Shown here piece after piece: positions 5,399 through 24,275 of a DNA stretch of 64,000 bases. Positions within the stretch are counted from its first letter, which is position 1. Every line of letters starts with the position of its first letter. Position numbers and translations under genes: made by a program. Source of the DNA: Macrostomum lignano (taxonomy: Eukaryota). Below the pieces are notes generated by a model that had not been told where the DNA came from, ran no database searches, and saw only the letters and a list, made by a program, of their open reading frames with translations. Location: assembly GCA_002269645.1 (NCBI GenBank), contig NIVC01000175.1, positions 248,001 through 312,000 of the forward strand, written 5' to 3'.

Positions 5399-5435
5399 CT
5401 CATCCTCCGAAAAAAAATCTAAATTTTCTCTAAAA

Positions 5436-5675
5436 ATGTTTCCAGCTGTCTCTCCAGGTTCTTATTACAAAGCGCACGAGCCTAATTACAAGAGTAAGTA
5501 CCGATGCAAACTTGAATGCAGCGAATACATGAGAAAATATTGGCCCGGCATTGATATCAATGTCCCTAATATTAATCTAGCTCTCCAAAGACACTGGTTT
5601 CATAAGTATGGAGTAACCTATGTAAAATATTACGACAGCTACTATAACTTTGCAGAAGTTATAAGGCAGTTGTAG
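5436..5675 (+). CDS. 79-aa Tyr/Lys-rich hypothetical protein; inverted paralogue of 23869-24240
   Basis: 63 of 79 residues identical to the right-end copy, with silent and conservative changes; AAAA-ATG start like other element genes. Confidence 0.7.
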   Translation: MFPAVSPGSYYKAHEPNYKSKYRCKLECSEYMRKYWPGIDINVPNINLALQRHWFHKYGVTYVKYYDSYYNFAEVIRQL

Positions 5676-5736
5676 TTGGCAACTACAAAGTTGTACCTAG
5701 CGGTTTATATCGTAATTTTACAAGTCTGAAGACGAC

Positions 5737-6594
5737 TCACATTCTCTCAATAATAATTGTTAACACAAACTCTTCCCCGTTAAAATCGACACCAACTCCA
5801 TCCTCTGTTTCAAACTGCAGAACGATTTCATGTATCTCTCTATTACTCAGAATCACTCTTTTCACGGGGTTCGGCTTTTGCACAAGCATTTTGCCACCAG
5901 CAACAGAGTTTGAAATGTTAAAAAGTATGTTGGTTCGTTTGCCCTTGAATATCCAATCATGGCTCAGATTGCTACGAATTAATATATTCAAACCTTTGAC
6001 AATGTCAGCGATATTTGGCGCCAAGTACATACCGGATATTAGCCGGGACACAGCAACAGTGCCAGGCGCCTGCAGCGGGCTTTGGTCTGTGGCGCCACCA
6101 TAAACTCTCTTTTCAAATCCCAACTCGCGATACCAAGTGCCATCTTTAAACTCTACCTCTGCGTCCTTATGAACTTGCAAGACAACTCTCATGACAGTTA
6201 GATCATAAGTTAATCTAACAGGGAACAGTTTATTTTCTGGTTTGCTTTCATCCGGTATCTCAAAATGCTTTCGTTTAGTGAAGACGTTCTCCAAGAAGTA
6301 ATTATAAGTATCCACGCTCTGTGTGCTGACAGGAAATATCACAACCTCTGTTGTAGTACGCTTCCATTTGTAATAAAACTTGTTATTTTCCGCTGTCACA
6401 TTCGGAACATTTGACCACCCAGTGAAATCATTGAGATGGACGTGGTAATTCGCCTCGGGATCCAAACGAAGTGGTTGCTCCAATTTTTGAATGAAGATTC
6501 CGTTTGACTCAGTAATGCGACCCGCTACAGTGATTGGAATGCTCTCCTTAGAGTGTGAAACAATGTTGTTTAGTCTTTCGGCTATGGCTTCCAT
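5737..6594 (-). CDS. Minor capsid protein (penton-like, single jelly-roll)
   Basis: PLRL...VHL...SNVPNV...NNKFYY near the N-terminus and EIVLQFETEDGVGVDFNGE at the C-terminus; directly downstream of the major capsid gene. Confidence 0.85.
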   Translation of the reverse strand: MEAIAERLNNIVSHSKESIPITVAGRITESNGIFIQKLEQPLRLDPEANYHVHLNDFTGWSNVPNVTAENNKFYYKWKRTTTEVVIFPVSTQSVDTYNYFLENVFTKRKHFEIPDESKPENKLFPVRLTYDLTVMRVVLQVHKDAEVEFKDGTWYRELGFEKRVYGGATDQSPLQAPGTVAVSRLISGMYLAPNIADIVKGLNILIRSNLSHDWIFKGKRTNILFNISNSVAGGKMLVQKPNPVKRVILSNREIHEIVLQFETEDGVGVDFNGEEFVLTIIIERM

Positions 6595-6616
6595 TTTTTG
6601 ATTGAAAAAAAATTAT

Positions 6617-7912
6617 TCAAACTTTACTAGACGAGTTATTGATCATATTGACCTTGATCTTCCTCTCAAATGCATAGATAATAAACAGATCAACAGCCGT
6701 TGCGGCACCAAATTCTTTCCGCTCGATATTAGTCACAATGTTAACAGGGCTATTGTCTGTAGGCATTTGTCTAGCAGTCACATCAACACCAAATATTTGA
6801 TATAGTTTTTTATACTGCAAGGTTGTCAAAACAATACCGTTATTCTCTTTGACAGCCAGGTCCGACAGTTCATTGTAAAACTTACTAATCTTGTTCTCCG
6901 AGAAATTCCCATTTTGTGGCAATGCAGGGTATAAATTGTCACTGATCTCATGTTGAATCGATCGAATGTTTCCATGTAGATATCTACCTACATTAGTTGT
7001 ATTCCTCATAGTGACAATAATGTACCTTGGATTGCTACAGGAGCCTTCTTTAATGCAAATATTGTGTCTTGCGTCATTCCGCTCATCTCTGCACATATAA
7101 GCTGTATAAGCAACATCAATGTCTTTCTCAATCGCCTTCAAGTATTCAGCTTTGAGTGCAGTCTTGGGCTCAATAATTTCTAAGTACAGCTCCACGCTAG
7201 TTAGCTTAATCTCCATCGATGTATGATTGGCCCCCGACCAAATTCCTCTGTTCCGATCATCTCTAGTCAGTCTAAATGTGTAGCTAAAGTTGCTTGTCAA
7301 CCGATTGAAACTATTACAGAAACCACTCATAAACCTCAAAGGTACAAAAATATCTACAGACCTAAACAGCGGATTCTTAGCAGCATCGTTCTCACCAACA
7401 AGAGCATAGTTGTATCTCTCCTTTCTCTTTTTGTAACCAGGGTCATTCTCATCTCCTGTCTGTTCATTGGGGATGAATCCAGCACCGCTCCCCATCTGAA
7501 TAAAATCCGGGTTCTCAATCAAGCACTGGGTATCATAGACCACACCAAAGTTTGCTATTCTTTCCAACTCTGTACTTCCATTGGACACATTAAACTCTTT
7601 GAACATATAAGCCCAGAAATTACTGGTTAGTGCGACATCTGCATTGTGTAGATCATCATTAGCATGAGCGGCGTCTGCGCCTCCTTTAGTTTTGAATTGA
7701 AACGTCATATAGAAGCCACTCCTTAGACTGTGGACACTGACCAAAGACGAACATCCGTTGTATGTGAATGTCAGCGTTTGACCTGGACCCAAATTAGTTT
7801 CATTCTGATTTTCCTGACTGGGAACTCTTACCTGAGTCGCTTTGATTGTGCTATCGTCACTCAAAATAGGCTTGTTAATTTTGTAGAAAACTGGTGTCAG
7901 TGGGTCGTTCAT
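6617..7912 (-). CDS. Major capsid protein (double jelly-roll, Polinton PY/hexon-like)
   Basis: 431 aa; N-terminal DDSTIK...GQTLTF, central FVPLRFMSGFC and PRYIIV motifs typical of Polinton MCPs; position next to the penton gene. Confidence 0.88.
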   Translation of the reverse strand: MNDPLTPVFYKINKPILSDDSTIKATQVRVPSQENQNETNLGPGQTLTFTYNGCSSLVSVHSLRSGFYMTFQFKTKGGADAAHANDDLHNADVALTSNFWAYMFKEFNVSNGSTELERIANFGVVYDTQCLIENPDFIQMGSGAGFIPNEQTGDENDPGYKKRKERYNYALVGENDAAKNPLFRSVDIFVPLRFMSGFCNSFNRLTSNFSYTFRLTRDDRNRGIWSGANHTSMEIKLTSVELYLEIIEPKTALKAEYLKAIEKDIDVAYTAYMCRDERNDARHNICIKEGSCSNPRYIIVTMRNTTNVGRYLHGNIRSIQHEISDNLYPALPQNGNFSENKISKFYNELSDLAVKENNGIVLTTLQYKKLYQIFGVDVTARQMPTDNSPVNIVTNIERKEFGAATAVDLFIIYAFERKIKVNMINNSSSKV

Positions 7913-7942
7913 TTTTTAACTAAAAATAAAATAAAATAAGAA

Positions 7943-9148
7943 ATGAAGCGAAAAAGTACACAGCAGATATCTGAATTGGAGAAGCTAGCACAAGCAGAGA
8001 AACGAGTTACCGGGCTAATAAATAAGGAGCAACAATCCTACAATGAGTTTGTCCAAGCAGCCACAGAGTTTCATAAACCCGGATACACAGAAGCGAAGAA
8101 AAACCTCGACACTGTGAAGGAAGCAGTTGATGATATTCAAGAGAGCCAGTTGCAAAACACATTGGGTAAAATTCCATCTTCACCGGGACAACCACAGGCT
8201 CAGCAACCAGAACAACCAGTGCAGATGAATGTGACGGATAACTTTTTTGGCCCCGTATTGGATGATGGAAAATATATTTTTGGAATTAGCGCCTGGCGAA
8301 AAAAAATTACCGGGGAACCGGTGGATTACAACATTGAAGTGACAAAGGAAAATATTTCAATCAATAAAGGCGCAGAAACTAAACGAATCCCCTTCACTCA
8401 AACTTTACTTGATTACATGACTAAAAATCAGAAAAAAAGATCCGAGAAGCAGCTCGAAAATTACAAAGATCTTGTTACCTTTGCTCTCGATAGGGACATA
8501 GATATGCTCAAGAACAACGGTGTTTTGAAAATTTTACATGAAAAAGGGATTGTCTTGAACAATTGTAAAAAATACAAATACTTTAAACAATGGTTTGGTT
8601 TGCCGGATCAAGAAGAGGTCATAAGACAACAACCACAACCACAGCAGCAACAACCACAACAGCAGCAACCAAAACAACAACTACAACAACCACAACAGCA
8701 GCAACCACAAACACAACCACAACCACAACAACCTCCACCGCCACAGCAACAAATCACACCCGAACAAGTACTAGAAGCGCTTGAAAAAGCAGGGCCAAAT
8801 GAGATTTCCCAGTACAGAAACCAGCGCCCAGATGAATGGCGACAATTAGAACAGTTCTCCCCAGAACGAATGAAGCGAATCAATGACAGAGTATTCACAC
8901 CTAGGCTACAGCAACCCTCACCAGGAACATCCTTCTCTGACCAATCATTCGAATCACCACCAAGCTCTTCCGGAAAAGGCATGCCTGAATTCTACAAGCG
9001 AGCAGCGGTTCTTCTAGGAGCGGCAAAGACCGGAATGAAAGATGAGAATAGAAAAGAGTTCGTTCACATCCTCAATAAAATGCTTGAGAGAAAATACATC
9101 GATAAGAGGGCGAGAGAGCTTCTGCTTTCGCGGTTCAACAAAAAATAA
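7943..9148 (+). CDS. Polinton conserved hypothetical protein with a Gln/Pro-rich linker
   Basis: 401 aa. C-terminal RAAVLLGAAKTG...EFVHILNKMLERKYI resembles a recurrent Polinton helical motif (recalled, unverified). Q/P tract at about 8620-8755. Confidence 0.75.
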   Translation: MKRKSTQQISELEKLAQAEKRVTGLINKEQQSYNEFVQAATEFHKPGYTEAKKNLDTVKEAVDDIQESQLQNTLGKIPSSPGQPQAQQPEQPVQMNVTDNFFGPVLDDGKYIFGISAWRKKITGEPVDYNIEVTKENISINKGAETKRIPFTQTLLDYMTKNQKKRSEKQLENYKDLVTFALDRDIDMLKNNGVLKILHEKGIVLNNCKKYKYFKQWFGLPDQEEVIRQQPQPQQQQPQQQQPKQQLQQPQQQQPQTQPQPQQPPPPQQQITPEQVLEALEKAGPNEISQYRNQRPDEWRQLEQFSPERMKRINDRVFTPRLQQPSPGTSFSDQSFESPPSSSGKGMPEFYKRAAVLLGAAKTGMKDENRKEFVHILNKMLERKYIDKRARELLLSRFNKK

Positions 9149-9164
9149 TTTATTTCAAGTAAAA

Positions 9165-9545
9165 ATGCCACTTATTTTCGAAAAAGACATTGACAAATAC
9201 TATGACAAAGAGGAACTTAATCTCATTAAACGCGGATCCGGACTTTTCCCTGCCGGCCACTATCCAAGAAAAGAACGCTCTGGGAATGGCCTTGCCGATT
9301 TGATCGCTCAGGAGGCCAAGATTTTTAAGGTCATTGGAGAGAACAAAGAGAACATCAAGAACGTTGCCGAAGCGGCTGGCAGTGTAGCCACAGCAGCCAA
9401 AAAGATTAAAGATACGGTTCATGAAACCCGGAAATCAATACCAGATATTCAACCCCTTGCACCGAGTGCAGATAGTGTCGATCCAGCCATCTACGCAAAG
9501 ATGAGAGCTGAATATAAGAAAGGAGGCGGTTTTAAATTTGACTAA
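9165..9545 (+). CDS. 126-aa basic protein with G-x-G motifs (candidate virion core/precursor protein)
   Basis: First ATG after the upstream stop, in AAAA-ATG context at 9165; motifs KRGSGL, RSGNGL and KKGGGF. Confidence 0.65.
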   Translation: MPLIFEKDIDKYYDKEELNLIKRGSGLFPAGHYPRKERSGNGLADLIAQEAKIFKVIGENKENIKNVAEAAGSVATAAKKIKDTVHETRKSIPDIQPLAPSADSVDPAIYAKMRAEYKKGGGFKFD

Positions 9546-9721
9546 TTTGGTGCACCCTGACGGTAAAAGAGGTGTGAGGGTGTAGGACTAGTCGGATGTA
9601 GGACTAGTCGAAAAAAGACACACACAACCCGCAAAAAGACACACACATACACATCCCGAAAAAAAGACACACGCGTCTTAAATACACAAGTTTAAAAAGA
9701 AAAAGTTTTTTTACATAAAAA

Positions 9722-10522
9722 ATGGACTTCACAAACGACTTTCATCCCCACTGGACACGCAATCAGATAAAATTTGCTCACAACGAGATAATTCCAGGGC
9801 ACTTCCGATGCATTGTTGTTGGCTCATCTGGGTCAGGGAAAACCTTCAGAGTTTTTAACATGCTCCTCAGACCTGGATTCCTCGATTATGACACACTACA
9901 TATCTATTCACCCACTCTGTATCAAGATGAGTATAAAATGCTAGTAGCGGGCCTACAGAACAAACTCAACAAGGAAGATATTATTCAATGTTTTAGACAT
10001 CAAAAAGACCTCAACAGCAACCCGGAAGTTGTAGCCACTGAATACGCAAAGCACATCCCAGACAATGAAAAATGGCAAAACATTAAAGTTTTCACTTATG
10101 GAGATCCACAGATAGATCCTAAAACTAAACTCTTACCTCAACCTGATGAACTAGAAAAGGGGAGAAAGCACCTGATTGTCTTCGATGACTGCATGACCGG
10201 TCCCCAGAAACAGATAGAAAATTATTTCACCCGGGGTAGACATAATAATTGCAATGTTATTTACATTGCCCAAAACTGGTTTGAACTGCCAAATAAAACA
10301 ATTAGAGGTAACTGTAATTTGATTCTCCTTTTCCCAACCATACCACAGGATCGACTGAAACGATTTTATAATGAAGTCATTGCCCCAGCTCACATTACAT
10401 ATCCAGCTAAGAACTCTAACAGAACAATATCACAGGAGGAATTTGTTAACATATGCTATGAAAAGTGGAACCAACCCTATCAGTTTGTCATGATTAATAA
10501 GGAGAAAAGAATTTTACTTTAA
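9722..10522 (+). CDS. DNA-packaging ATPase (FtsK/HerA, poxvirus A32-like)
   Basis: Walker A GSSGSGKT, Walker B LIVFDD, and RGRHNNCNVIYIAQ. Confidence 0.95.
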   Translation: MDFTNDFHPHWTRNQIKFAHNEIIPGHFRCIVVGSSGSGKTFRVFNMLLRPGFLDYDTLHIYSPTLYQDEYKMLVAGLQNKLNKEDIIQCFRHQKDLNSNPEVVATEYAKHIPDNEKWQNIKVFTYGDPQIDPKTKLLPQPDELEKGRKHLIVFDDCMTGPQKQIENYFTRGRHNNCNVIYIAQNWFELPNKTIRGNCNLILLFPTIPQDRLKRFYNEVIAPAHITYPAKNSNRTISQEEFVNICYEKWNQPYQFVMINKEKRILL

Positions 10523-10538
10523 TTTTTCATTTAAAAAA

Positions 10539-11225
10539 ATGTCTATTAATTTTGCAGGTGAGTCAACTACAGGCAACAGCACTCTCACAACTTCCTTCCT
10601 TGACAAGCGCTACATTAACACTGATGAAGAGATCCCAGAGATCAAACTGAATAAAAACAGACTGAAAGCCCTAGAGCGCTCCATGCACCAGTTGCAAATA
10701 AACATGGAAGATCTCAGGCTTAAAGTAGCTAGGCAGAAGTTTGAAAGTGATAAGCTTTATGTGCCGTTGTTAAACGCAACTAATGAACTAAGGTCAGAAA
10801 TAACTTCGATAGTCTCGCTAATCAACGGCTTAAGATCGACAGTTAATCTTCTGGGAAATTCCACTGATAGACGGATGCGTATTCTTGAAGGAGGAGTTTT
10901 CACAAACACAGCTAAAGTAAATCATTTAGAAGAGTTCATGAACCAGTCAACAGCGTTGCATGATAGAATTAAAGAAAGACTTGAAGCATTAAAGAGAAAG
11001 GATGTATCACACAGTAGCTATCTAAACGGAATGTATAGCGCTTGGGGTAAAATAATAAGGAGGCTTGATCGTCTGGAGAGAACACTCAATCTTCGTGATA
11101 TTGCTATTGATGAAGCAGAATCTACTGCTCGTTCGGTCATTACTGCAGATGAAATTATCAAAAAGATGATTTCAAGCAACAGAACTTTTCAAAACAACAG
11201 ATCTTTCAACCGGGTAGTTTTGTAA
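10539..11225 (+). CDS. 228-aa predicted coiled-coil hypothetical protein
   Basis: Long heptad-like L/I pattern; ATG context shared with the neighbouring genes. Confidence 0.7.
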   Translation: MSINFAGESTTGNSTLTTSFLDKRYINTDEEIPEIKLNKNRLKALERSMHQLQINMEDLRLKVARQKFESDKLYVPLLNATNELRSEITSIVSLINGLRSTVNLLGNSTDRRMRILEGGVFTNTAKVNHLEEFMNQSTALHDRIKERLEALKRKDVSHSSYLNGMYSAWGKIIRRLDRLERTLNLRDIAIDEAESTARSVITADEIIKKMISSNRTFQNNRSFNRVVL

Positions 11226-11250
11226 TTTTTAAATTTTTTCTAGGAAAAAA

Positions 11251-11970
11251 ATGGCCCAACAAAATTCTCTATACGATCAGTCTCAATACGCTGAACCTAA
11301 AATACCGACAGCACCAAACCCAATGGCACCGAATTCGAACACACAAAGCCTGAATGCACCGAATCTGAATGCACCTCAATATGAGCAACAAAAACTCTAC
11401 CCCGTCATTTCATGTAACTCTCAACAATTTCGACTAGTGGAGATTCAAAAAATGCGAGATGACATTGAAAAAAATATTTTCCACAACACAGAGAAAATTA
11501 AACGCTATGACAGCCACTGTAAATTTTTCGACTACAGCAATATGATTCTAGGATCTGTGTCTGTTCTATCTGGATCTGCTGCGGCTGTCTCAACGTTGCC
11601 AGTCATCACAGCCCCAATCGCAATCCCACTCGGCTCTGTGGGTGCTGCGTGTGGACTTATTTCAGCAATTACTGGAGCATTAGCGCGAAACAGGCGAAAA
11701 AAACTAAAGCAGCTACAGGAGAAGCAAGTAAAAGAGAAAGGGGTGCACACATCAATCATAGGGTACATTTCAAGGGCAATCGAGGATAAGTTCATTTCAG
11801 AGGATGAGTTCAAAACCATTCAGGATCTTTATGAACAATCAATTCGAATGAACTTGAACATGGTCGGTACTGATGACATGAGTCAGTTGAGAAATGAACT
11901 CGAGAAATTTCTTCAACATTATGTGGAAAGAAAGTCGGCAAGAAGGACAACGAGAAATACACCACAATGA
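11251..11970 (+). CDS. Conserved Polinton protein with a hydrophobic Gly/Ala-rich hairpin (probably the type called GasderminX in adintoviruses)
   Basis: FRLVEI...KRY, hydrophobic segment ILGSVSVLSG...GLISAITG, then ISRAIEDKFISEDEF. The family name is recalled, not verified. Confidence 0.72.
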   Translation: MAQQNSLYDQSQYAEPKIPTAPNPMAPNSNTQSLNAPNLNAPQYEQQKLYPVISCNSQQFRLVEIQKMRDDIEKNIFHNTEKIKRYDSHCKFFDYSNMILGSVSVLSGSAAAVSTLPVITAPIAIPLGSVGAACGLISAITGALARNRRKKLKQLQEKQVKEKGVHTSIIGYISRAIEDKFISEDEFKTIQDLYEQSIRMNLNMVGTDDMSQLRNELEKFLQHYVERKSARRTTRNTPQ

Positions 11971-11974
11971 ACCC

Positions 11975-12376
11975 CTATGAAACACAGCCAAGAATAATTT
12001 CCTTGTAGGTCTTTCGTGTTTTGGTCATTGCATACAAAACAGTCATGCACAGCTCACCGCAAATATCACTGCTAAGACCTTGGAGAATAAAGTCTGAGCG
12101 ATAAATTTTTTTATTGTTTTTCCCCTTCATATAATTTCTTAGCTCTTCTGGTACTGCCGTACCATAGCTATCGAAGTAATAACACTGGTGCTTGCGATCG
12201 GGATCAATCACCCAGCAAACCCAATGAGATCCTGGCTTATCGGTGGTGTCAAAGTTCATGATGCCGCATTCTTTTCTTAGAGGAAAATCAGACAGAGTGT
12301 CCCTCATAAATATTCCTCTAAAGTTTGGGATTTCCAGTTCGTTAGCCAAATCTTCAAGAAAGTTATTTGTCGTCAT
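11975..12376 (-). CDS. Adenain-like cysteine maturation protease
   Basis: GSHW (His), YFDSYG (Asp), LQ...DICGELC (Gln/Cys). Confidence 0.93.
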   Translation of the reverse strand: MTTNNFLEDLANELEIPNFRGIFMRDTLSDFPLRKECGIMNFDTTDKPGSHWVCWVIDPDRKHQCYYFDSYGTAVPEELRNYMKGKNNKKIYRSDFILQGLSSDICGELCMTVLYAMTKTRKTYKEIILGCVS

Positions 12377-12943
12377 TTTTTATGAGGTTTATTAAACTTT
12401 CTCTTAAACCTAAACCTAATCTCAACCTCCTAAACCCAATCTCCTAAACCTAATCTCCAGTGCCCGAACGGTAGACTGTTAATATTGTCATCAAAAATGA
12501 ATCTTTTATTATCTGCACCTGACAGTCCAATCTTTTTTTGCTGAATTGTGTGAATAATATGGTTTTTGGATTGTAGCTTTGAGAACTCATGTGATGTCTT
12601 TTTGTTGCAATTCAAGGCGTCTCTGTATTCAGCTTCATTAATTTCCTTCCTAACCACGCGTTTTGGAATTCCCTTTGATTTTTTAATTGGGTCTGACGAC
12701 TCACATTTTACAAAATACGTCAGTTTGAGGCAGGTATCTGACTCTAACTGGTTTTAAACCCCCCGCGCCGGCCCGGCCTCTTTTTGGTGGGTTGGTGGGG
12801 TGCTGGTGCTCTGCGTGCGTGCAGGGCTTAGGGCAGCCTCCCCCCCGCTCTGTGCTATTTAGTCTCGCGTCGCGGCCGCTGAGTCGGCGTAATTTTGGCA
12901 AAATATTTTTTGCCTGCCTGATTTGCCAAGCACTGCACTCACA

Positions 12944-13969
12944 ATGGACTCTACGTTGGGCAGCATGACCGTGCAGGCCCTCAAATATGCCTTACGCGAG
13001 AAGGCCTTACCTACAAGTGGCAATAAAGAAGAGCTGATAGGCCGCCTGCTCGCTGCAAGCCAGGCCGAACGAGCTCCCAGCGATGACGACGGTGACGACG
13101 ACCAGGACGAGGATGACGTGCGCCGGGCTGCGCCAGCGGAGGAGGCCACAGAAGCGCAGATTCGGCAGACTCAGAAGAGGATCGAGCTGCTTAAACTGCA
13201 GAAGGCTGAGGCCCAGTTGCGGGATGAAGTGCAGTCGATCCGCAGTGGCGCCGCATCGCCCCCGCTGGCCAGAGGAGGGCCGGACATCTACGCCAGCTTG
13301 TTCGGGGACCAGAGCCGACAACCGAGGTTTGATTCGGCCGGAGCCCAGCGGCCCCCATCAGCGCTGCTCATCCCGGAATTTCTGGACGAGAAGCAGCAGT
13401 CGGGAGGATGGCTGACACAGGAACGTGGTCGCCTGACTCTGAAAGGCGCAACGCCGAGCCTGTCCGGAGTCAACTTCGGCCAGTGGGTGGCTGCCAACGC
13501 GCGGATCATGCAGCGACTGCTGGAGACCGGCCAGCTGGTGGCGCCCGGTACGGATGGACAGCTCGACTGCAAGAGTCTGAACGCCTACCTCAACTTTAAC
13601 ATCCACATCGGCGAGCTGATCGACGCTGGCTACGACTGGAAGGTGGTGCTCCAGTACGACCAGGACATGAGGCTGCAGCAGCACTCGCGACAGCGCGACT
13701 GGGACAGCCCCGATCTGAACCTCATCATCAAGCATATGACGGCGCCCAAAAACCTGCGAGCTGCTGGCCCAGTCGCGGTCGGTCAAGGAGTCCAGGGTCA
13801 CCGTAGCAGGGGCCAGCTGTCATCCGCTGGACAGGTCATCTGCGGCTTGTTCAATAGCAACAAAGGCTGTCACAGACACACCTGCAATTTCGCCCACATC
13901 TGCCGCATCTGCGAAGGGAGCCACTCAAAGCTGCAACACAGCTCGGTGGCTGCCGAATCAAAAAACTGA
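12944..13969 (+). CDS. Gag-like protein with N-terminal SAP-like domain and C-terminal CCCH/CCHC-type zinc finger
   Basis: MTVQALKYALREKALPTSGNKEELIGRL (SAP pattern); CGLFNSNKGCHRHTCNFAHICRICEGSH as in DIRS/Ngaro gag. Confidence 0.8.
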   Translation: MDSTLGSMTVQALKYALREKALPTSGNKEELIGRLLAASQAERAPSDDDGDDDQDEDDVRRAAPAEEATEAQIRQTQKRIELLKLQKAEAQLRDEVQSIRSGAASPPLARGGPDIYASLFGDQSRQPRFDSAGAQRPPSALLIPEFLDEKQQSGGWLTQERGRLTLKGATPSLSGVNFGQWVAANARIMQRLLETGQLVAPGTDGQLDCKSLNAYLNFNIHIGELIDAGYDWKVVLQYDQDMRLQQHSRQRDWDSPDLNLIIKHMTAPKNLRAAGPVAVGQGVQGHRSRGQLSSAGQVICGLFNSNKGCHRHTCNFAHICRICEGSHSKLQHSSVAAESKN

Positions 13970-16449
13970 GCAAAGAGGCGGGTCGCGGCGGCACCAGTTT
14001 TAGCTCTAAGCGGACGGCGTCTGATAGACAGTCCAAAATTTTAACTCCATGCGAGACAGCTGCTCGCACTGCCACTGGCCCTGCCGCTCGCCCTGCCACT
14101 CGCCTTGCCGCTCGCCCTGCCGCTCGACCTGCCACTCGCACTGCCGCTCGCCCTGCCGCTCGCCCTGCCGCCGGCCCTGCCGCCGGCCCTGCTGCCGGCC
14201 CTGCTGCCGGCCCTGCTGCCGTTCCTGCTGCCGGTCCTGCTGCCGGCCCTGCTGCCGGCCCTGCCGCCGGTCCTGCTGCCGTTCCTGCTGCCGGTCCTGC
14301 TGCCGGCCCTGCTGCCGGCCCTGCCGCCGGTCCTGCTGCCGGCCCTGCTGCCGGCCCTGCTGCCGGCCCTGCTGCCGGCCCAGCCGCCGGCCCTGCCGCC
14401 GGCCCCGCTGCCGGCCCTGCTGCCGGTCCTGCTGCCGGCCCTGCCGCCGGTCCTGCTGCCGTTCCTGCTGCCGGTCCTGCTGCCGGCCCTGCTGCCGGCC
14501 CTGCCGCCGGTCCTGCTGCCGGCCCTGCTGCCGGTCCCGCTGCCGGCCCTGCTGCCGGCCCAGCCGCCGGCCCTGCTGCCGGCCTAGCCGCCGGCCCTGC
14601 CGCCGGCCCTGCTGCCGGCCCAGCCGCCGGCCCTGCCGCCGGCCCCGCTGCCGGCCCTGCTGCCGGTCCTGCTGCCGGCGCTGCTGCCGGCCCTGTTGCC
14701 GGCCCGGTGGCTGCACTCCAAAAACGTTGGCCGCTGTTAACTGCTGCTTGGACACCAGTCCTGCTCGGAGACTCGGACGCGGAGTTTCTGATCGCGGGAA
14801 TTCGCGATGGCTTTCGCATCACCGACGCGGCTCCGACCAGCGAATCCCAGCTCGAAAATCATGCATCCGCCCGCTGCGAGGCAAATCGGAATGCCGTTGA
14901 GCTGCAGATCAGAGAGGAGGTCGTGGCTGGCCGGTACATCAGCGCAACTGACTTGGGCATCGCCAGGCCGACCATCATCAGCCCACTGGGCGCCGTCCCG
15001 AAGGCAGACGGCGCCATCCGCCTGATTCACGACGCGTCCGCGCCACAGGGCAACAGCCTCAACGATCTGTACAAGCCCCGCCAGAAGATGAAGTTTGCCA
15101 ATGTCGAGGATCTCACCAGGCAGCTGGCACCAGGCTGGTTCATCAGCAAGGTCGACCTACGCCACGCCTACCGAAGTGTTCAGGTGCACCCAGACTGCTA
15201 TAAGGCGACGGGGCTCCGGTGGACGTTCGAGCTGGACGGTCAGCCCACCTATCTGGTTGACACGCGACTCCCATTCGGTGCGGCGGCATCAGTCAACATT
15301 TTCCACCGCCTAACGCAAGCTGTCAAGCGCTTTATGTACAGGCAATTCTCGCATCTGTCCAAATTCGTCGTCATCGCATACCTCGACGATTTCTGCATAG
15401 CTGCCCGGGACTACGAGGTCTGCCTGCAGCTGCACAATTTTCTGCTGGTCACCCTGCAGCGCCTCGGCTTTGAGATCAACTGGGCCAAGACGCAGAGCCC
15501 AGCCACTTCGGTCACTTTCCTGGGTGTGCAGATCGACACATTGACTGGCCTGCTGTCACTGCCCGCCAAGAAGATGGACGGCCTTCGAGAACTTCTCCAG
15601 GACTGCGCCAACTCGAAGAGCCTGCAAAAACGTCGCCTTCAGCACCTAGTCGGCAAACTGAACTGGTTCTGCAAAGTGGCCAAACCTGCAAAGGCCCTGC
15701 TTCGCGCGCTCCTGGAGATAACCATCGCTATTCCTGAGCAGCATCATCGAGTACCGGTGCGCGGCGAGCTACTGGCCCAGTTGCAGTTCTGGCAGCATGC
15801 AATCCCAGTGTTCCCGACCGACAAGCTGTGGCGGCGTGCACGAGTGCTGGCAGCGGTCGAGACGGACGCCTGCGTCAGTGCCGGTGGCATGATCCTGAGC
15901 ACCTCTGATGGCCAGCGCGAGTTCCGCCTCGTCGACTTCTGCAGTGACGCCGGTGGCATCTTCCTGAGCGAGCACATCAACGCCAAGGAGACGGCACTGC
16001 CGCTGCTCGCCATCATTCTGTTCCAGGAGCAGCTGGCCGGCGGCAAGGTGGCCTGCTACGTCGACAGCAGCGCGGCGGTCGGCACCATCAACCGCGGTGC
16101 CTCCAGCAACCCGATCGTCATGACCCTGCTCAAAACGGCCACTCTGGCAGCGCTGAGGCACGACTTTCAGTTTCGAGCTCACCATATGCCGGGGTCCTGG
16201 CAGCTGCTGAGCGACCCGCTGTCGCGCTGCCTGACGCATCCCCGCCACATGCTGCTGTTTCTGCTGCGCTACTTCGGCCGGGCCAAGGCGCAACCGGAAG
16301 ATCTGCGCAGGGCCTGCCTCAATGAGTCAACGGCGGCCCGGTTGCTTGAGCAGGCGTCGCTCGCGCTGAGCCCCGGTATCTGGCGCAGTTCTCGAGCGGA
16401 GCGAGTTGCGACGGCTGAAGCAGATCCCGAGCTCAGGTACGAGTCTTAG
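13960..16449 (+). CDS. Pol (RT + RNase H) of the DIRS/Ngaro-like element; frame open from 13807
   Basis: [56 protein letters not shown]. The frame has no stop from 13807 through the minisatellite to 16449. Confidence 0.9.
14085..14705. repeat. 12-bp GC-rich minisatellite (CTGCCGGCCCTG), about 50 units, inside the pol frame
   Basis: Direct reading; encodes (AAGP)n in the same frame as RT. Confidence 0.93.
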
Positions 16450-19400
16450 AGCTATTGCTTGGACCTGTTTTTTTTTGGCTTGGTTTAATTTTTTCTGCGG
16501 CTCGTTGATTTGATTTTACACGCTTGTCTCCTTCCTCCCTCTTTCTGTTGGTGTTGGGGTTCGTTTTCCCTTTCTGGGCCGCGTCTGCCGGTCTTTTGTG
16601 CCACTTGCTTTTACTCTGCGTTAGTCTTTTGGGGTTTAATAGGACTTTGCTCTCAACCCAATGAATTCAGTGATTATGTCACCAGCAATCTCGTCCTTCA
16701 TTTTCCCAATCACTTTCTTGTTAGTGGCGTCAAACACTTGATCGCCATTCTGTGTCCTGAAAGATTCATCATACTCAGACAAGTCAAACAAATCTTTTTG
16801 CTGCAGCATGTCCTGATAAATGTCTTCTGTTTGAATGTCCATAATAAAACTGTCTGTGTCAGTGTACAAGAGTTTCATTTTATCCTTGTACTGCTGCTTC
16901 ATGCCATAGAAGAACTGGTACATCAGACGTTTTGATTCGTCGAGAACAGTGACACCTGTATAGATCGGCTTGCGCAGCGTCACCTTGGTTTTGTAAAATA
17001 TGATCACACCTAAGTAGCTATTAAAGATATGGAGTTCTTTGAATGTTGGCTTTGACATATTTGCCTGAATAACAGCAGGCTCTGATGAGGTAACAAGTTT
17101 CAGGTTTGTTCTTTTCCGCTCATTCTCAAGAGTCTTGCCATAGACAGAGTTGTTGGCCAACTTAAAGAGGTTCTTGTCAAAGTCGTTGGTTGCTTTGGTC
17201 CTAAACTGGGTGTTCTTATCAATGTAGGGTTTCATCCACGCTTCCTCTGTAAATGTAAGAGCCCTGTGAACTTTGGTGACCCTGCAACCAAGTGAGATAA
17301 AATACTGAAGCAGTTTGTAATGAATTTTGTAACGTGTCTTGTTGTTTAGATTCTGTGTTAGTTTCTCTGTATGTTCTTTTTCTGTTCCTTACAGGTGCCA
17401 AGTTCCATAGGGAGTTTCGATTATTTTCGGGCACTTGATGTTCTCTGGGAAGGGTGGAAAGTCAGAGAAATAGTCGTGAAGCTCTGGTGGAATGTAAACA
17501 TTAACCTCATAAATGGCAGCCAATGAAAAGTCCCATTTGAATTTTGATACGAGTAGCCATCGAAAATCTCTAACTGGAAGATATTGACTCATCGCCCAAC
17601 CGTAGAGATTATTAGCGTCCAAGTAAGTAATGTAGTTTGAGGGCTGCTCCTTATTGTAAGATTCAATGTAGGGATTGTTTGCCTTTGCATATCTATGGGT
17701 GCAAATTGAGATCCCCCCTCGCTTTGACGATTCGACAAAATTGTACATGTCAATGTCTGTAAGAAGTTCAATGTACCAATCTGGATCTTGATCCCATTTC
17801 ATTTTAAGCAAAGATTCCCAGCTAGTGGCAGGGAGAGACACATAATGTGCTGGATCGAGGCCATATGCTGTGTACCAGGTGTATCTGAAGGTTTCAAACA
17901 CATCGGCCAGCAGAAACACATCTGTGAAGAGGTAAAGCAGGTGATACTGGAAGAAGTTTTGACAATTAAAGTAATTATAGACATGCTTCGCGTGCTCATA
18001 GTCTTTGTCAGAGATTCCAGAGTCTGTTAGCCTTGAAAAGAATTTCTCCTGTGGTGGTAAACCTTCTTCAAATACGTGATACCCAGTAATATTCTCATAG
18101 GGGTAGAAGCCTTTCTTTCTTAAAAGTTTAAATAATTCATCAGTTCTTGCAAATATCTTTGTATATGTACATTGTTCATCTTTTAGATTCTTGCTTAGTT
18201 CGTCTAGACTGGCAGCTAGAAATTGATATGAATCCTTCAGTCTTATTTTACCTTTACTGTTACCCGAATTATCCTGTTTAATATCAACACACTTAAACTT
18301 CTCCTTGTTCTCTGCGATGCAGTCAAGGTGTATGTCTTGAATCATGCCGATTTTTTCAACTATTAAATGCATGTCATAGTTCTTTGCGTTGTGACAAAAT
18401 ATCGTTAGATCATGAATGTTCGATTTTAGCTTTAGATTACAGGTGTTATGCGCTGCACCTCTAAATTTCCCAGTAAAGTGACAGTGGTCCCTAACGGTGG
18501 GGTTTTTTATATCAGTGCAAGTTAACTGTTTCCTGCAGATGTGGCAATGAGTTGCTGATAGGAAATTGCTTTCATCCTCCTCAGTCATCATTATTGGAAC
18601 AGGTTGAAAAGTGCTAATCACTCTTTGCAACTCTAACATTCTGGCAATAAACTGCTCCACACACTGCTCTCCAAAGAAATAATTATACTCAACAAGTCCT
18701 TTTGTATTAATAAAGGCATATGCTACTGAATTAGGGACATGTCTTTGAGTTTGTTTTTGAGTTTGAGTTTGTTTTTTGAGTTTCTGGCATGATTGAGCAT
18801 TCGAAATCAGCATATACAACAAATGGGAGCTTCTCCATCTTGTGATAGTTCTTAAAACGGAGATACTTCTCTTCAGCTGAAGGAAGAGAGCAATTGGTCG
18901 GGTGATCCTCACATGATAATTCATGCTCTGCTAGTTTTTCAAAGCGCTCATGTCCACTGTAATGCTTAAGGCACAAGCGGCAGATGGCAACAGCCTCGTG
19001 ATGATTATTCAACTGTTTGTGAATGAGTCTTGAAAGATCTTTAATCTAAACATAGTGAGCCTCCTCTAGTAAATTACCAATCACTAGAAGATCCACTTCA
19101 GTCCGCCTTTTCCCCTCAGGATCTAAAACGTCTTTGCTACATCTGACCGGTTGAACTTTCTCAGTTTTTTCACTCCACTCAAAGACTGTTATTCTAATTT
19201 TGTTATTAAACACTTCTTCTAGCTTTGGGATCTGAGAGATCGCCAAGCCTCCTTTGTCAAACCTGATTCCCTTCTTTTCACATTCGATGAGATAGTGCTT
19301 GAAATAATTTTGATAATTTGAGGTTCTTTCGGGGTGGTGAGAGACACTATCATGATGAAGTGCAGAAAGAACTGCCCATAGAGCACAGCAGTTGTCTTTA

Positions 19401-20246
19401 TTTTTAACATTTATGCAAGCTTTTTTGCCGGCTAGCTTATGCGGGAGATCTATATGAGAGGAGGCTTTAAGTGGGTCAAATTTCATGACCATAACAGTCG
19501 CTCTTTGAATCCCTCCCACGACCCATCCGGAACCTCTGGATGTAAACGCTTCAATTTTCTTAGTGACATCTTGAAGGAAAGGATCCAGTGTGTCTGTAGG
19601 GGTGAATGGCTTTGCCTTTGTTGTCATGTAATACTCGAGATGTTCAGTGGGTTTTGCAGGCATATAAAACGCAATCTTGAATGATATCTGTAGTTTAAAA
19701 GTCTTGCGTGTTTTGAGTGTGTGATCAACAACTGATTGGATGCTGTCTTTATAGTCATAGATGTTTGCGGTGGTGCCGTTTATTGGGATTGTGTACTCTA
19801 TGTAATGTTCTGTAAACTTCCTCTGTGCAAAATTAATCTCTTCAGTGGCAAGCTCCGACTCTTTTAAATGGATTAATTGCTCTAATTTCTCTTGTTCCTG
19901 CTTATTTTGTGGGTACTTTGCTTTTTCACCAGTGAGAGTTTCATATTTGTTAACTAAGTTGCGACTCCTCTCTTGGTGTTTTTCATAGCTTCCCAGGTGA
20001 CCAGGGTCGGTGTTAAACTTTTGTTTACATGCTTCTCTTAGTAAATTACTTTTGTCTTGAAATGAGACGCCTTTTGAAAAATACTTGTTGACTAAATCTT
20101 TTGCTGGATTGGCTTTTGGCATTTTTTCTCGAAAATTTTTAAAAAATTTTGAGGGTGACCACCCTGATAGAAAAGTTGAACTGTTTCTACATCCTATCAG
20201 TAGCGTTAGGTTTATGAAGCTGGATAAAGTGGGGTTTTAAACCTCA

Positions 20247-20711
20247 TCACATCCGCATTATTGTAAACCCAGCATTGTGCAGTGTCATGATGGCTTTGAC
20301 AATGTCGGACTTGCTTACAGAATTTTGATGCACACAAGCATCATGATCATCACAATTATCAAAATCAGGGCAGCCCTCTCCTGCCTTAATTGTTATACCT
20401 TTGTCTCTTGCAATCTTTTGCAATTCTAGCTGGTGAGCTCTATCATTCCCAGCTTTAACAGCAGTTGCTACACCTCCAGCTACACCACCTGCGGCACTTA
20501 CGGCGCCTGCAATGATTGGGATAAGAGCTGCTAATGGTAGGATTCCTCCTGACTTTTCATCTGTGATGCTGTGTCTTTGCTCATTACACTGAACTATTTG
20601 CTGCACGGGATCGATTTTTACTTTGGCACCTTTAATTGATATAAGACCTGGTCTCTTTGATTCAATGATTTTATTGAGTTTATTGATGGTTCTGGTTTCA
20701 ATCTTTGCCAT
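20247..20711 (-). CDS. Adenovirus pX (pre-mu)-like core protein
   Basis: KSGGILPLAALIPIIAGAVSAAGGVAGGVATAV closely resembles the adenovirus pX C-terminus MRGGILPLLIPLIAAAIGAVPGIASVA. Confidence 0.7.
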   Translation of the reverse strand: MAKIETRTINKLNKIIESKRPGLISIKGAKVKIDPVQQIVQCNEQRHSITDEKSGGILPLAALIPIIAGAVSAAGGVAGGVATAVKAGNDRAHQLELQKIARDKGITIKAGEGCPDFDNCDDHDACVHQNSVSKSDIVKAIMTLHNAGFTIMRM

Positions 20712-21745
20712 TTTTTTATTTTAATATTTTGATGAAATTCTGTGTCAGCTGGTATCACTAGGAGTTCAGCTCTAGTGAATGACCGCGTGGGGGATTTAGG
20801 GTTAAAGGCCTGAGATAAAAAGTAATACTCTCCAGAGTCAGAGGTAAAATGTCTGTCTATTTTATGTACATCAAGGCTGAAGTATGGATCTGTAGCTCTT
20901 CTTTTGGTGTCTTTCTCTAGCTCTCCAGGTAGATATAAAAAGCGTAGAAACTCAGAGTTTGTCAGTATGTATGGTGATTCAACTCTTGGAAGCTTAGGGT
21001 AGTTCGAGGTGTGTTTTGTGTTGTGCTTGTTGTCTGTTCTATGAGGTGTCTTAAGTTTGACAATGTCTTGTTTAATTGCATGGGACGGTTTCAATCCAGT
21101 CATGCGTGTGACTTCATTGTTCAGTTGCTCTTTAACAGTAGGGAGTCTTTCTGTCCACTTGGTATAGTATTGCCCCGCACTCAGTTTGAGTTCTTGCGCT
21201 GTCTGCTTAGTGAATAGTCTCTTGGCTAGAGTTAGATTGAATCTTTCCACAAAAGCCTGGTCTCTGTGGAGCTCAGTTCTTCCGTAGCGAATCTTCGTAT
21301 TTTTCTTTTCCATAAGGGATTTGACTGCACCCATGAATTCCTTACCCGGGTCGGTCATAAAGGTTTGGGGGTATGTGAGCGGAGAGTTTTTATAAATATC
21401 TTGCAGTGCGCTGGCAACAACCTCTGACTTCTTCGTCTTGAGTGGGCGAGCTTCCTTATATCTGGAGGCAATGTCTGTAATTATAAGAGCATACTTGTAG
21501 CCTGAGTCATTGGGGAGAAACAGAAGATCTGCTTGGTGCGCCTCATTAGGTTTATAAATACTGAAATGGGGCCTTTCAAATTTTACTGGTGGGAAATAGA
21601 CTTGAAAGACAGCCTGCTTAGAGAGCCATTTTTCTACTGTAGCTTTTGGCTCCTTACTCAGCTCCATGAGTTTACTAACGGCATTTTTGCCTACAAAGAA
21701 TCCTTTGTCGCTGTAGTAGAGTTTTTTAAGTTTCTGATCTGTCAT
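20618..21745 (-). CDS. Retroviral-type (c-int) DDE integrase
   Basis: HQADL (D), TDPGKEF (D), VERFNLTL (E); N-terminal LKKLYY as in Polinton integrases. Confidence 0.95.
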   Translation of the reverse strand: MTDQKLKKLYYSDKGFFVGKNAVSKLMELSKEPKATVEKWLSKQAVFQVYFPPVKFERPHFSIYKPNEAHQADLLFLPNDSGYKYALIITDIASRYKEARPLKTKKSEVVASALQDIYKNSPLTYPQTFMTDPGKEFMGAVKSLMEKKNTKIRYGRTELHRDQAFVERFNLTLAKRLFTKQTAQELKLSAGQYYTKWTERLPTVKEQLNNEVTRMTGLKPSHAIKQDIVKLKTPHRTDNKHNTKHTSNYPKLPRVESPYILTNSEFLRFLYLPGELEKDTKRRATDPYFSLDVHKIDRHFTSDSGEYYFLSQAFNPKSPTRSFTRAELLVIPADTEFHQNIKIKKWQRLKPEPSINSIKSLNQRDQVLYQLKVPK

Positions 21746-21775
21746 TTTTTTTAAAAAAAAATTTTAAATAAAATA

Positions 21776-22276
21776 ATGCAACGCTCTGGCGGTAACTTAG
21801 ACTCACATGGACTGATAGAAAAGCTTCCTCATCCAAACAAAGGCTGGACACTTCCCGGCTATAAATATTGCGGGCCTTTGAATCCGCTTGAAATACAGCT
21901 GGATGGAAGCAACAACCCAAATCCTGGGCATGAGCCTGTGAACGAGCTAGACTCTGTCTGCATGTGGCACGACGTTAAATATAGAGATTTTCCTGAGGAG
22001 AAGAATCGCTGGGACAAAGAAATGCTCAGGAGACTCGACAATATGGGGATTTCAAGTGGGTGGAAGGAATCGATCGCTCGGAAGCTAGTTAAAGCTGTTA
22101 TTTTTGGTAAGACAAAATTGGGGTTGGGGGTGGGCGCTGAGGGTGGGTGTTTGGGAAGAGAGGGTGGGTGCACGGGGAGAGAGGGTGGACGCTCGGGAGC
22201 AGGGTTTATTTTGTGCGTTCCTAACAATGAACTGGGAAGACTGCTGAAAGAGCTGGGGGTTGAGAGAGACGTTTGA
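21776..22276 (+). CDS. Parvovirus VP1-type phospholipase A2 domain protein
   Basis: LPGYKYCGPLN (Ca-loop like) and PVNELDSVCMWHDVKY (HD catalytic dyad). Confidence 0.85.
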   Translation: MQRSGGNLDSHGLIEKLPHPNKGWTLPGYKYCGPLNPLEIQLDGSNNPNPGHEPVNELDSVCMWHDVKYRDFPEEKNRWDKEMLRRLDNMGISSGWKESIARKLVKAVIFGKTKLGLGVGAEGGCLGREGGCTGREGGRSGAGFILCVPNNELGRLLKELGVERDV

Positions 22277-22467
22277 GTCGGGAAGGGTTTAACTATTATT
22301 CTCAGCCCTGGCCAAACGCGACAGCTGCATTTGAAAAGTTGAGAAGCAGAAGGGGGGGGGGTCGATCGCTCGGAAGCTAGTTAAAGCAAGTAAAAAAATT
22401 CAGCTCATTTTGCTCGCACACGTTCTTCGTCACGCAATACTGCACCGTTGTGGCTGCTGATTTCATT

Positions 22468-23286
22468 ATGTTGTAAGTTTATTCATTTTTTACTTACTGA
22501 AATTCTAGAATTGAAAAATCTCTTATTTTAATTAAATCTTTGTTTTTTAGTTCACAAAAAATTACGTTCTACTCGACCGACCTAGAAAATCTCCACGGTC
22601 GCCTTGTTGAAGGATTAAATGCCGATGAACAGGCATCAGAGCGAATTCAAGAAGTTCTCCACAATTTCTTCAATGAAAAAGTTAAGAACCAGCGAATTCG
22701 TTCAAGAGCGGCCGAGGAGACCCAGGTTCGCAACTATGCCATGAGAACCGAAATGGTGTTTGACGAACTTCGCCGATCATTTGTTGCTGATGAAGATACA
22801 CTTCTTAGTTATCAACAAATGAGGAACTTTGTTGCCCAATTCCAAATGGATTCGGTCGATTCTTATCGTACGCACCATACAAATCTCTTGCAAACGGAGC
22901 AACAGGTGGATGGAAAGTCTGTTGCCGCGGCTTTCTGTATGGGGCTTATATATAAGAAGGCAAAATCCAGACGGCGGGCATCAAATCGAAGGGTTGCGGA
23001 AACTTTTGGTGTGAAGGAACATGAGGTGCAGAAGAAGCTCAAAATCTATGAACTTCTGACGTCGCTGCCTCGGTTGCAACACTGTAAAGCTTAAGTTTCC
23101 TTCTTGTTGGATAACGCTACTCTCATTTTAAGTGAGTACCGCTACCAACGTGACGCAAATATTTGGACTGACCCAACAGTTCCGCAAGCCAATCAAATGC
23201 CAGAAGGTGCTCATGGTAACGTTGTTATCCCTGGGGCGGCAAATGTGGCAGCAGCTGGTGGAACCGAGGATATGCAGGAGGGTTAA
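22468..23286 (+). pseudogene. Spliced accessory gene inside the Polinton, with a probable internal nonsense codon
   Basis: ATGTT|GTAAGT (22473)...TTTTTTAG| (22550) joins in frame to MFSQKITFY. TAA at 23092-23094 is followed by an in-frame continuation to 23286. Confidence 0.55.
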
Positions 23287-23344
23287 AGACACAATACGCG
23301 CTTGCATACCCAGTAAGTATAAATCTCCTGGAAGAACTCTGCCC

Positions 23345-23834
23345 TATACAATTTGCTGTACACGAAATGAGCGGGAGGAAAATCAAAATTCTTCTGGATC
23401 CGAATAATATCGATTTTGGATTGTGCGAGGATCTGCTCGTATACCCAGAAGTATAAATCTATATCAACCCTCGAAGAACTCTGCCCTAGCTGGACTGGAA
23501 AATGAAAAAGAAATGAAAAGAAATTTCTTTACTAGCTGTGGCTAGAACTGCATTGCATTCTCTCGAGTCTATAAAATCTATAGTTAACAACTCCAAGTCC
23601 AAGAGACAAGGGCGTTCTAGCTTCTATTGTGCTACAATTGAGGCACTGGTAAGCAAGAGAGGGAGAGAGGGACGGGACGGGAGCCATGGACGGGACGGGG
23701 CTGCTAGAGTCTGGCAAGCGGGCAGAATTATGGGGCTATTGCCATATACAATTTGCTGTACACGAAATGAGCGGGAGGAAAATCAATATTCTTCTGGATC
23801 CGAATAATATCGATTTTGGATTGTGCGAGGATCT
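23345..23834. repeat. 90-bp direct repeat, copies at 23345-23434 and 23745-23834
   Basis: One mismatch; copies are exactly 400 bp apart. Confidence 0.9.
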
Positions 23835-23868
23835 ACAATATCTTGTTCTTTCATTTCCAGCCGTGCAA

Positions 23869-24240: not shown

Positions 24241-24275
24241 TTTTATTGAGAATTTTATTTTTTTCAAAGGGTGAG

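What the first reader, a model, noticed from the sequence alone, without database searches (positions are those of the whole stretch)
13960..14706. Canonical -1 slippery site leading into a minisatellite translated as an about 200-aa (AAGP)n linker before RT
Gag ends GAA TCA AAA AAC TGA, so the heptamer A_AAA_AAC (13960-13966), a known retroviral -1 frameshift motif, abuts the stop. The -1 frame is the RT frame and stays open through about 50 copies of a 12-bp unit; the only stop in the array (TAG 14585) is in another frame. Inference: a Gag-Pol fusion of about 1170 aa with an expandable flexible linker. The GC-rich repeat could also act as the stimulatory RNA structure. The ORF track hides this because it starts RT at 14707.
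Basis: partly seen in the sequence, partly recalled or inferred. Interest (0 to 1): 0.7.

Follow-up and report, generated by a model that had tools for sequence, protein, structure and literature searches.

The report
Frameshifted retrotransposon with minisatellite-coded protein tether
A jumping gene in a flatworm ends its first gene on a slippery sequence, shared by most relatives with the same gene overlap, that likely makes ribosomes shift frame and read through a 54-copy DNA repeat, which would hang its reverse transcriptase on a 216-amino-acid tether.

Summary
Observation confirmed. A_AAA_AAC (13960-66) abuts the gag stop. The -1 frame is the RT/RNase H frame, has no ATG before the RT core, and runs through 54 exact 12-nt units (216 codons); predicted fusion 1,168 aa.

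The element is an Ngaro-like (DIRS order) retrotransposon of Macrostomum lignano, with no recombinase gene, inserted in a Polinton polymerase gene.

The frameshift is well supported by comparison: 22 of 26 independent relatives with a -1 overlap carry A_AAA_AAC in frame near the gag end (other phases 0 of 26; upstream windows 1 of 591), and 10 of the 13 closest Gags end Lys-Asn-stop.

No relative examined has the long linker. Its in-frame reading is supported, its function is not, and the repeat as RNA stimulator got no support beyond base composition.

Side result: the same clade also shows in-frame stops (12 of 44) and a +1 class with CGU_UUU_CGU (5 of 6), so probably three recoding modes at one junction. 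The scan earlier noted a gag-UAG-pol Ngaro in another genome. Nothing was tested at the bench.

The parts
12714..12717 (.). AATA at the left junction (likely recombination core)
   Evidence: in 4 of 4 runs contigs covering 12640-12717 go on into letters matching 16642 onward (empty site, one AATA); one search shows both junctions
12718..16637 (+). Ngaro-like retrotransposon body, 3,920 bp, GC 0.64 against 0.40-0.41 in the flanking Polinton
12944..13969 (+). gag ORF, 341 aa: SAP domain, C-terminal CCCH/CCH knuckle (about 13841-13924), ends Lys-Asn-stop
   Evidence: Pfam SAP E=2.6e-7; gag profile of relatives E=4e-46; alignment A2
13960..13966 (+). -1 slippery heptamer A_AAA_AAC abutting the gag stop
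13966..16449 (+). pol frame reached by the -1 shift: 827 codons (spacer, array, RT, RNase H); stop-to-stop ORF 13858-16449
13977..13993 (+). G-rich arm predicted to pair with the first array units (candidate stimulator, not above shuffles)
14059..14166 (+). 9 twelve-nt units, AARP-type
14167..14706 (+). 45 twelve-nt units, AAGP-type; 34 of 40 departures from the commonest unit are silent in the pol frame
14728..16227 (+). RT (YLDD at 15379) and RNase H (motifs at 15862, 15976, 16060, 16210)
   Evidence: Pfam RVT_1 E=2.5e-17; motif positions; alignment A1
16638..16641 (.). AATA at the right junction
4847..24745 (.). Host Polinton/Maverick: terminal inverted repeats about 4847-5675 and 24004-24745; rve integrase, A32 ATPase, adenoviral-type protease, PLA2-like, pPolB (minus strand, in pieces; the retroelement sits inside it)

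Best explanation
This is a gag-pol junction of an Ngaro-like retrotransposon in the flatworm Macrostomum lignano where ribosomes likely slip one base back on A_AAA_AAC just before the gag stop and would then translate a 54-unit minisatellite as a 216-residue Ala/Gly/Pro tether ahead of reverse transcriptase. Most ribosomes would stop and release the 341-aa Gag; a minority would make a 1,168-aa Gag-tether-RT/RNase H protein. These elements encode no protease, so the tether would stay uncleaved and carry RT into the Gag particle. The shift signal is ancestral to the clade. The array is a lineage-specific expansion kept in frame because pol must be read through it. SHOWN: motif, frames, lack of an ATG, conservation of the motif, exact 12-nt register, absence of the linker in relatives. 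INFERRED: the shift itself, the fusion, the tether role, and that the missing recombinase came in trans or was lost after insertion.
For: 22 of 26 independent relatives (clustered at 70% RT identity) with a -1 overlap have A_AAA_AAC in the gag frame in the last 45 nt, and 25 of 26 have some canonical heptamer; the other two phases 0 of 26; upstream gag windows 1 of 591; other junction classes 0 of 18 (Fisher p=1.4e-8). Lys-Asn pairs there read A_AAA_AAC in 22 of 26 cases against 5 of 65 elsewhere, so the nucleotides and not only the peptide are kept. 20 of these 26 have no ATG in the pol frame up to the RT start. 10 of the 13 closest Gag homologues end Lys-Asn. 5 of 5 further loci have -1 geometry: 3 with A_AAA_AAC at the stop, 2 with C_CCA_AAA. 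The main contig form keeps the heptamer and runs unbroken into the array start in 4 of 4 runs laid. No GTRAG donor on the element's + strand. The array has no indel in 54 units; 34 of 40 departures are silent in the pol frame against 3 and 5 of 40 in the other frames. A second copy or allele (P0001, 99% identical) has the array end in frame with RT. A_AAA_AAC is listed among the most shift-prone heptamers (PMC5009743, passage).
Against: No experiment. No conserved 3' stem in 22 relatives (mean z -0.23; p=0.18 and 0.90 against controls; pseudoknots not modelled). One diverged contig (about 88% identical, 2 of 4 runs) lacks the heptamer, though by the listed differences it also has a premature gag stop and a lost knuckle cysteine. 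Of 8 -1-class loci dropped by my filter, 6 (L010, L015, L059 and the near-copies L075/L077/L078) showed no heptamer. The silent bias in the array is only 5 of 9 distinct changes against one third expected, which is weak. The window copy differs from all contigs at 6 coding places, 5 of them amino-acid changing, so this copy may be drifting. No run is on record as RNA.
Confidence: 0.77

Rival explanations
1. The frameshift is real in the family, but the array is a neutral minisatellite expansion that happens to have a 12-nt stop-free unit and has no role; this lineage may be decaying.
For: None of the 56 relatives kept has a linker (gag stop to RT match at most 108 nt; 35-44 nt in 5 more loci against 779 nt here), so it is dispensable. 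The window holds many other minisatellites. A 12-nt period is in frame by chance one time in three. This copy has no recombinase and carries private amino-acid changes.
Against: No indel in 54 units; the commonest variants are all silent in the pol frame; the array start is shared by the main contig form in 4 of 4 runs and a diverged contig aligns to 14088; RT and RNase H motifs are intact.
Confidence: 0.3
2. The array works mainly as RNA: its C-rich 5' units pair with the G-rich arm 10 nt after the heptamer and form a long-range frameshift stimulator.
For: The arm 13977-13993 pairs with the array with probability near 1 in 5 of 5 folds; 13972-14100 folds at z=-2.27; the arm region is one of four best partners among 3,220 element 25-mers.
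Against: Duplex energy not beyond dinucleotide shuffles (111, 399 and 361 of 500 as good); array alone z=-1.42; local folds z=0.27, -1.15, 1.46; relatives keep the heptamer with no array; no covariation data.
Confidence: 0.15
3. Pol is made without frameshifting, from a spliced, trans-spliced or internally initiated mRNA that bypasses the array.
For: Near-cognate starts exist in the pol frame (GTG 14707, CTG 14734) and a YAG at 14758; 6 of 26 -1-class relatives have an ATG before RT; trans-splicing in flatworms is recalled, not tested.
Against: The first ATG (15088) lies after conserved RT motifs; no GTRAG donor in the element; no joint near the gag end among those listed; would not explain nucleotide-level conservation of A_AAA_AAC.
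Confidence: 0.07

Closest known systems
Ngaro retrotransposons (DIRS order, tyrosine-recombinase retrotransposons)
   Same: gag with zinc knuckle, RT/RNase H without methyltransferase, protease or DDE integrase; relatives carry a recombinase ORF (56 of 61 with 600 nt or more after RT) and L034 shows A1..B1-A2-B2 repeats; short shared core at both junctions.
   Different: This copy has no recombinase ORF and no split direct repeats; it has a 216-codon minisatellite before RT; gag-pol recoding signals were not found described in the papers I could read.
-1 programmed gag-pol frameshifting of retroviruses and LTR retrotransposons
   Same: X_XXY_YYZ heptamer at the gag end, pol in the -1 frame with no start codon (PMC5009743, passages).
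   Different: Different retroelement order; no protease; no conserved 3' stem detected; long repeat linker.
Ngaro elements inserted in endogenous virophages of Cafeteria burkhardae (PMC8547959)
   Same: GC-rich Ngaro inside an AT-rich Polinton-class element, once in pPolB.
   Different: Here an animal host and a Polinton/Maverick; one insertion only, so no evidence of targeting.
UCC_UUU_CGU +1 frameshift class (influenza PA-X and others; PMC3498833, abstract)
   Same: Relatives in the +1 class carry CGU_UUU_CGU in the gag frame inside the overlap (8 of 8 loci).
   Different: Not the window's own signal; found in a sister clade of retrotransposons; untested.

Membership tests
Ngaro | RT/RNase H pol without methyltransferase, protease or DDE integrase | tested here: met
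   Pfam finds only RVT_1; pol ends 73 aa after the last RNase H motif, as relatives end within 21-99 aa where complete
Ngaro | gag-like ORF1 upstream of pol | tested here: met
   profile of relatives' Gags hits at E=4e-46
Ngaro | tyrosine recombinase ORF after pol | tested here: not met
   no hit of a relatives' recombinase profile in the window; met in 56 of 61 relatives with room for it; another M. lignano gene model (P0098) joins a related gag to a recombinase
Ngaro | split direct repeats A1-ORFs-B1-A2-B2 | tested here: not met
   no repeat of 30 nt or more outside the array in this copy; one contig joins the element's 3' end to its 5' end, as a B-A junction or circle would; L034 has the full pattern
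Ngaro | integration by a short shared core without target duplication | tested here: inconclusive
   AATA at both junctions, once in the empty site and once in the end-to-end junction; fits core recombination, but a 4-bp duplication looks the same in the window alone
Ngaro | RT groups with named Ngaro references in a tree | not testable with these tools
   no named reference sequences were returned; the tree holds unnamed relatives only
-1 programmed frameshift signal | X_XXY_YYZ heptamer in the upstream frame inside the overlap, conserved | tested here: met
-1 programmed frameshift signal | 3' stimulatory structure 5-9 nt downstream | tested here: inconclusive
   no enrichment in 22 relatives; arm-array duplex not above shuffles; pseudoknots not modelled
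-1 programmed frameshift signal | measured trans-frame product | not testable with these tools
   needs a reporter assay, ribosome profiling or mass spectrometry

The most novel reading that the evidence does not exclude
Animal Ngaro retrotransposons have switched repeatedly among three recoding modes at one gag-pol junction (-1 on A_AAA_AAC, +1 on a PA-X-type UUU_CGU, and stop readthrough), and this flatworm lineage adds a selected, minisatellite-coded tether of about 250 residues that holds an uncleaved RT on Gag and may also supply the RNA stimulator, while spreading without its own recombinase.
Probability: 0.3. Interest if true: 0.72.

Novelty: new variant of a known kind. Interest (0 to 1): 0.5.

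Why it matters
How DIRS-order elements express a start-less pol is rarely addressed; the comparison here gives a specific, testable answer. The clade offers matched natural -1, +1 and readthrough signals in one genetic context, useful for asking what Gag:Pol ratio is selected and how recoding modes interconvert. A UUU_CGU +1 signal in retrotransposons would extend a class described from viruses. The repeat-coded tether shows how much an uncleaved Gag-RT fusion tolerates. The mechanism itself (-1 gag-pol shift) is textbook, which caps the interest.

Tried and rejected
No whole genome is held, so no copy census. No relatives in viral contigs or, by gag, in genome contigs. No RNA holder listed: expression is open. 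Array length in other copies was not read; the stretch laid ended at 14090. No Rfam match in 12700-16700. A longer-protein search gave one distant hit. No conserved local stimulator. No recombinase remnant in the last 490 nt (best score -0.4 bits, controls -1.3). A loose end at 13818 in one run matches nothing in the window and is unexplained. The Cys-rich ORF 14049-14900 and the antisense ORFs over the array were rejected as by-products of a stop-free repeat: no Pfam match for 14049-14897, and variation is silent mainly in the pol frame. The careful tree did not finish; the quick tree is reported. Two key papers on Ngaro (Poulter and Butler 2015; Goodwin and Poulter 2004) are not held, so prior description of the gag-pol signal cannot be excluded.

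Full report
OBSERVATION. Gag starts at ATG 12944 and ends GAA TCA AAA AAC TGA; A_AAA_AAC lies at 13960-66 in the gag frame, and the -1 frame is open from 13858 to 16449. It is the only canonical heptamer in frame in 339 gag codon positions. The pol frame has no ATG until 15088, after the RT motifs ISPLG (14977) and RLIHD (15019). The array is 54 units of 12 nt in unbroken register, 14059-14706: 9 AARP-type and 45 AAGP-type. Its one stop, TAG 14585, is in the gag frame. The predicted fusion is 341 + 827 = 1,168 aa.

WHAT THE ELEMENT IS. The RT/RNase H is 99% identical to a UniRef protein of Macrostomum lignano (P0001) and 35-55% identical to most of 86 other hits. Gag has a SAP domain and a CCCH-type knuckle. 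The element (12718-16637, GC 0.64) lies in the pPolB gene of a Polinton of GC 0.40 with terminal inverted repeats, integrase, ATPase and protease. In 4 of 4 runs laid, contigs of the empty site carry one AATA; the window has AATA at both ends; one contig joins the element's 3' end through AATA to its 5' end; other contigs show other left flanks, so the family is multicopy. That fits recombination at a short shared core, as described for DIRS1 (PMC3266345, passage). Relatives encode a recombinase-like ORF3 (Pfam phage-integrase matches in 7 of 12 tested, most below the curated cut-off; profile hits in 56 of 61 loci with room) and L034 has Ngaro's split direct repeats. The window copy has neither. 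I file it as Ngaro-like, recombinase-less, and not as a full member.

TEST OF THE FRAMESHIFT. One search kept the best 80 of 248 RT-encoding stretches, chosen by RT patterns and so blind to the junction. 12 had no gag called (short contig or fused frame), 12 more were dropped by a filter (gag length, overlap, distance), and the remaining 56 gave 44 representatives at 70% RT identity. 26 have pol in the -1 frame: 22 carry A_AAA_AAC and 25 a canonical heptamer in the last 45 nt of gag. Controls: other phases 0 of 26; upstream windows 1 of 591 (17 for any heptamer); other classes 0 of 18. Lys-Asn pairs at the gag end use A_AAA_AAC in 22 of 26 cases, elsewhere in 5 of 65. 20 of 26 have no ATG before RT. 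In a separate protein search, 10 of the 13 closest Gags end Lys-Asn, and 32 of 126 knuckle-ending Gags have Lys-Asn in the last 15 residues against 50 of 2,325 background windows. Five more loci all show -1 geometry, 3 with A_AAA_AAC at the stop and 2 with C_CCA_AAA. Against: 6 of the 8 dropped -1 loci show no heptamer (L010, L015, L059, and three near-copies L075/L077/L078), 2 do (L031, L049). One diverged M. lignano contig in 2 of 4 runs lacks the heptamer, but by the differences listed (87 rows were not shown) it also has a premature gag stop and a lost knuckle cysteine, so it looks decayed.

STIMULATOR. In 22 relatives the 70 nt after the heptamer fold no better than control windows (pseudoknots not modelled). 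In the window, 13977-13993 pairs with the array with probability near 1 and 13972-14100 has z=-2.27, but the duplex is matched by 111 of 500 dinucleotide shuffles.

THE LINKER. The distance from gag stop to RT match is at most 108 nt in the 56 relatives kept (partly bounded by my 130-nt filter; dropped loci reach 335 nt) and 749 nt here. So the array is lineage-specific among the loci seen; DNA of the closest relatives was not available. Signs that it is read in the pol frame: no indel in 54 units, and 34 of 40 departures silent in that frame against 3 and 5 of 40; counted as distinct changes it is only 5 of 9. P0001 has the array end in frame with RT. DIRS-order elements lack a protease (PMC3783388, section 3), so the linker would be a permanent tether; that role is inference. 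Array length variation was not measured. The window copy differs from all contigs at 6 coding places, 5 amino-acid changing, which suggests drift after insertion or assembly error.

ALTERNATIVE ROUTES. No GTRAG donor exists on the + strand of the element, and the main contigs run from gag into the array start without a listed joint. None of these runs is on record as RNA, so splicing is disfavoured, not excluded.

SIDE RESULT. The other 18 representatives do not use -1. Twelve have gag and pol in frame with one stop: TGA-C in 5 of 7 (p=0.02), TAG-G in 4 of 5 (p=0.006), never TAA; that these are readthrough-type contexts is recalled, not from a call. Six have pol in +1, 5 with TTT_CGT in the last 45 nt; before clustering 8 of 8 have CGT TTT CGT in the gag frame inside the overlap, like the PA-X site (PMC3498833, abstract). 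Caveat: 5 of these 6 also have an ATG in the pol frame before RT. On a quick tree of 61 rows the three labels need at least 11 changes; well-supported branches force at least 4 for -1, 3 for in-frame stop and 1 for +1.

LITERATURE. Searches for Ngaro/DIRS with frameshift, slippery or readthrough and for Macrostomum gave no description of these gag-pol signals in what I read: passages of PMC6681497, PMC3266345, PMC3212892, PMC9210276, PMC13003380 and PMC5009743; passages plus one section each of PMC8547959 and PMC3783388; the abstract of PMC3498833; listings only for the rest. No supplements were read. PMC13003380 quotes Poulter and Butler 2015 as proposing frameshifting for the recombinase ORF; that review and Goodwin and Poulter 2004 are not held and may mention gag-pol. 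Ngaro insertions in virophages, one in pPolB, are known from Cafeteria.

VERDICT. The -1 shift is likely (about 0.88); translation of the array follows in active copies (0.77 overall); a function for the tether is unproven. New variant of a known kind; interest 0.5.

Noticed in passing
L001, L002, L005, L007, L018, L021, L024, L067 (gag ends): pol in the +1 frame with invariant CGT TTT CGT in the gag frame inside the overlap, a PA-X-type motif; 12 of 126 Gag homologues have Arg-Phe-Arg in the last 15 residues, 0 of 2,325 background windows.
   Followed up: partly
L006, L009, L016, L020, L023, L030, L034, L035, L037, L038, L051, L066: gag and pol in frame with a single TGA or TAG, mostly TGA-C or TAG-G: candidate readthrough; L009 and L011 also have pol and the third ORF in frame across one stop.
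   Followed up: partly
L046, L050, L053: long open frame upstream of RT with no stop: gag and pol appear fused.
   Followed up: no
window 4847-24745: Polinton/Maverick with long terminal inverted repeats holding 82-bp tandem units; its pPolB gene is in pieces (retroelement insertion at 12718-16637 and a stop near 17389). Contigs of the empty site occur in 4 of 4 runs.
   Followed up: partly
window 12714-12911: The 5' end of the element is far deeper in contigs than gag, with diverged versions followed by unrelated AT-rich DNA and one form skipping 109 nt: solo repeats or short derivatives; terminal structure unresolved.
   Followed up: no
window 13818: One contig in one run leaves the element here, next to a GT, into sequence absent from the window.
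   Followed up: partly
window 13851-14858 (minus) and 14049-14900 (plus): The repeat unit also reads AAGP on the opposite strand, and an ATG-started Cys/Arg/Pro ORF of 283 aa runs over the array in the third frame.
   Followed up: partly
P0096, P0098: Other M. lignano families of the same kind: one Gag ends Lys-Asn, one gene model joins gag, a piece of RT and a recombinase; possible source of recombinase in trans.
   Followed up: no
L081-L085: These retrotransposons sit in contigs filed under bacterial MAGs, probably animal DNA binned with symbionts.
   Followed up: no
window 50944-52128 (minus), 61586-63448 (minus), 38037-38717 (minus): A 394-codon frame through an 18-bp repeat (SSDQQQ)n, a GC-rich 620-codon Pro/Ala-rich frame, and a frame that looks like a non-LTR RT fragment (by eye, no search).
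   Followed up: no
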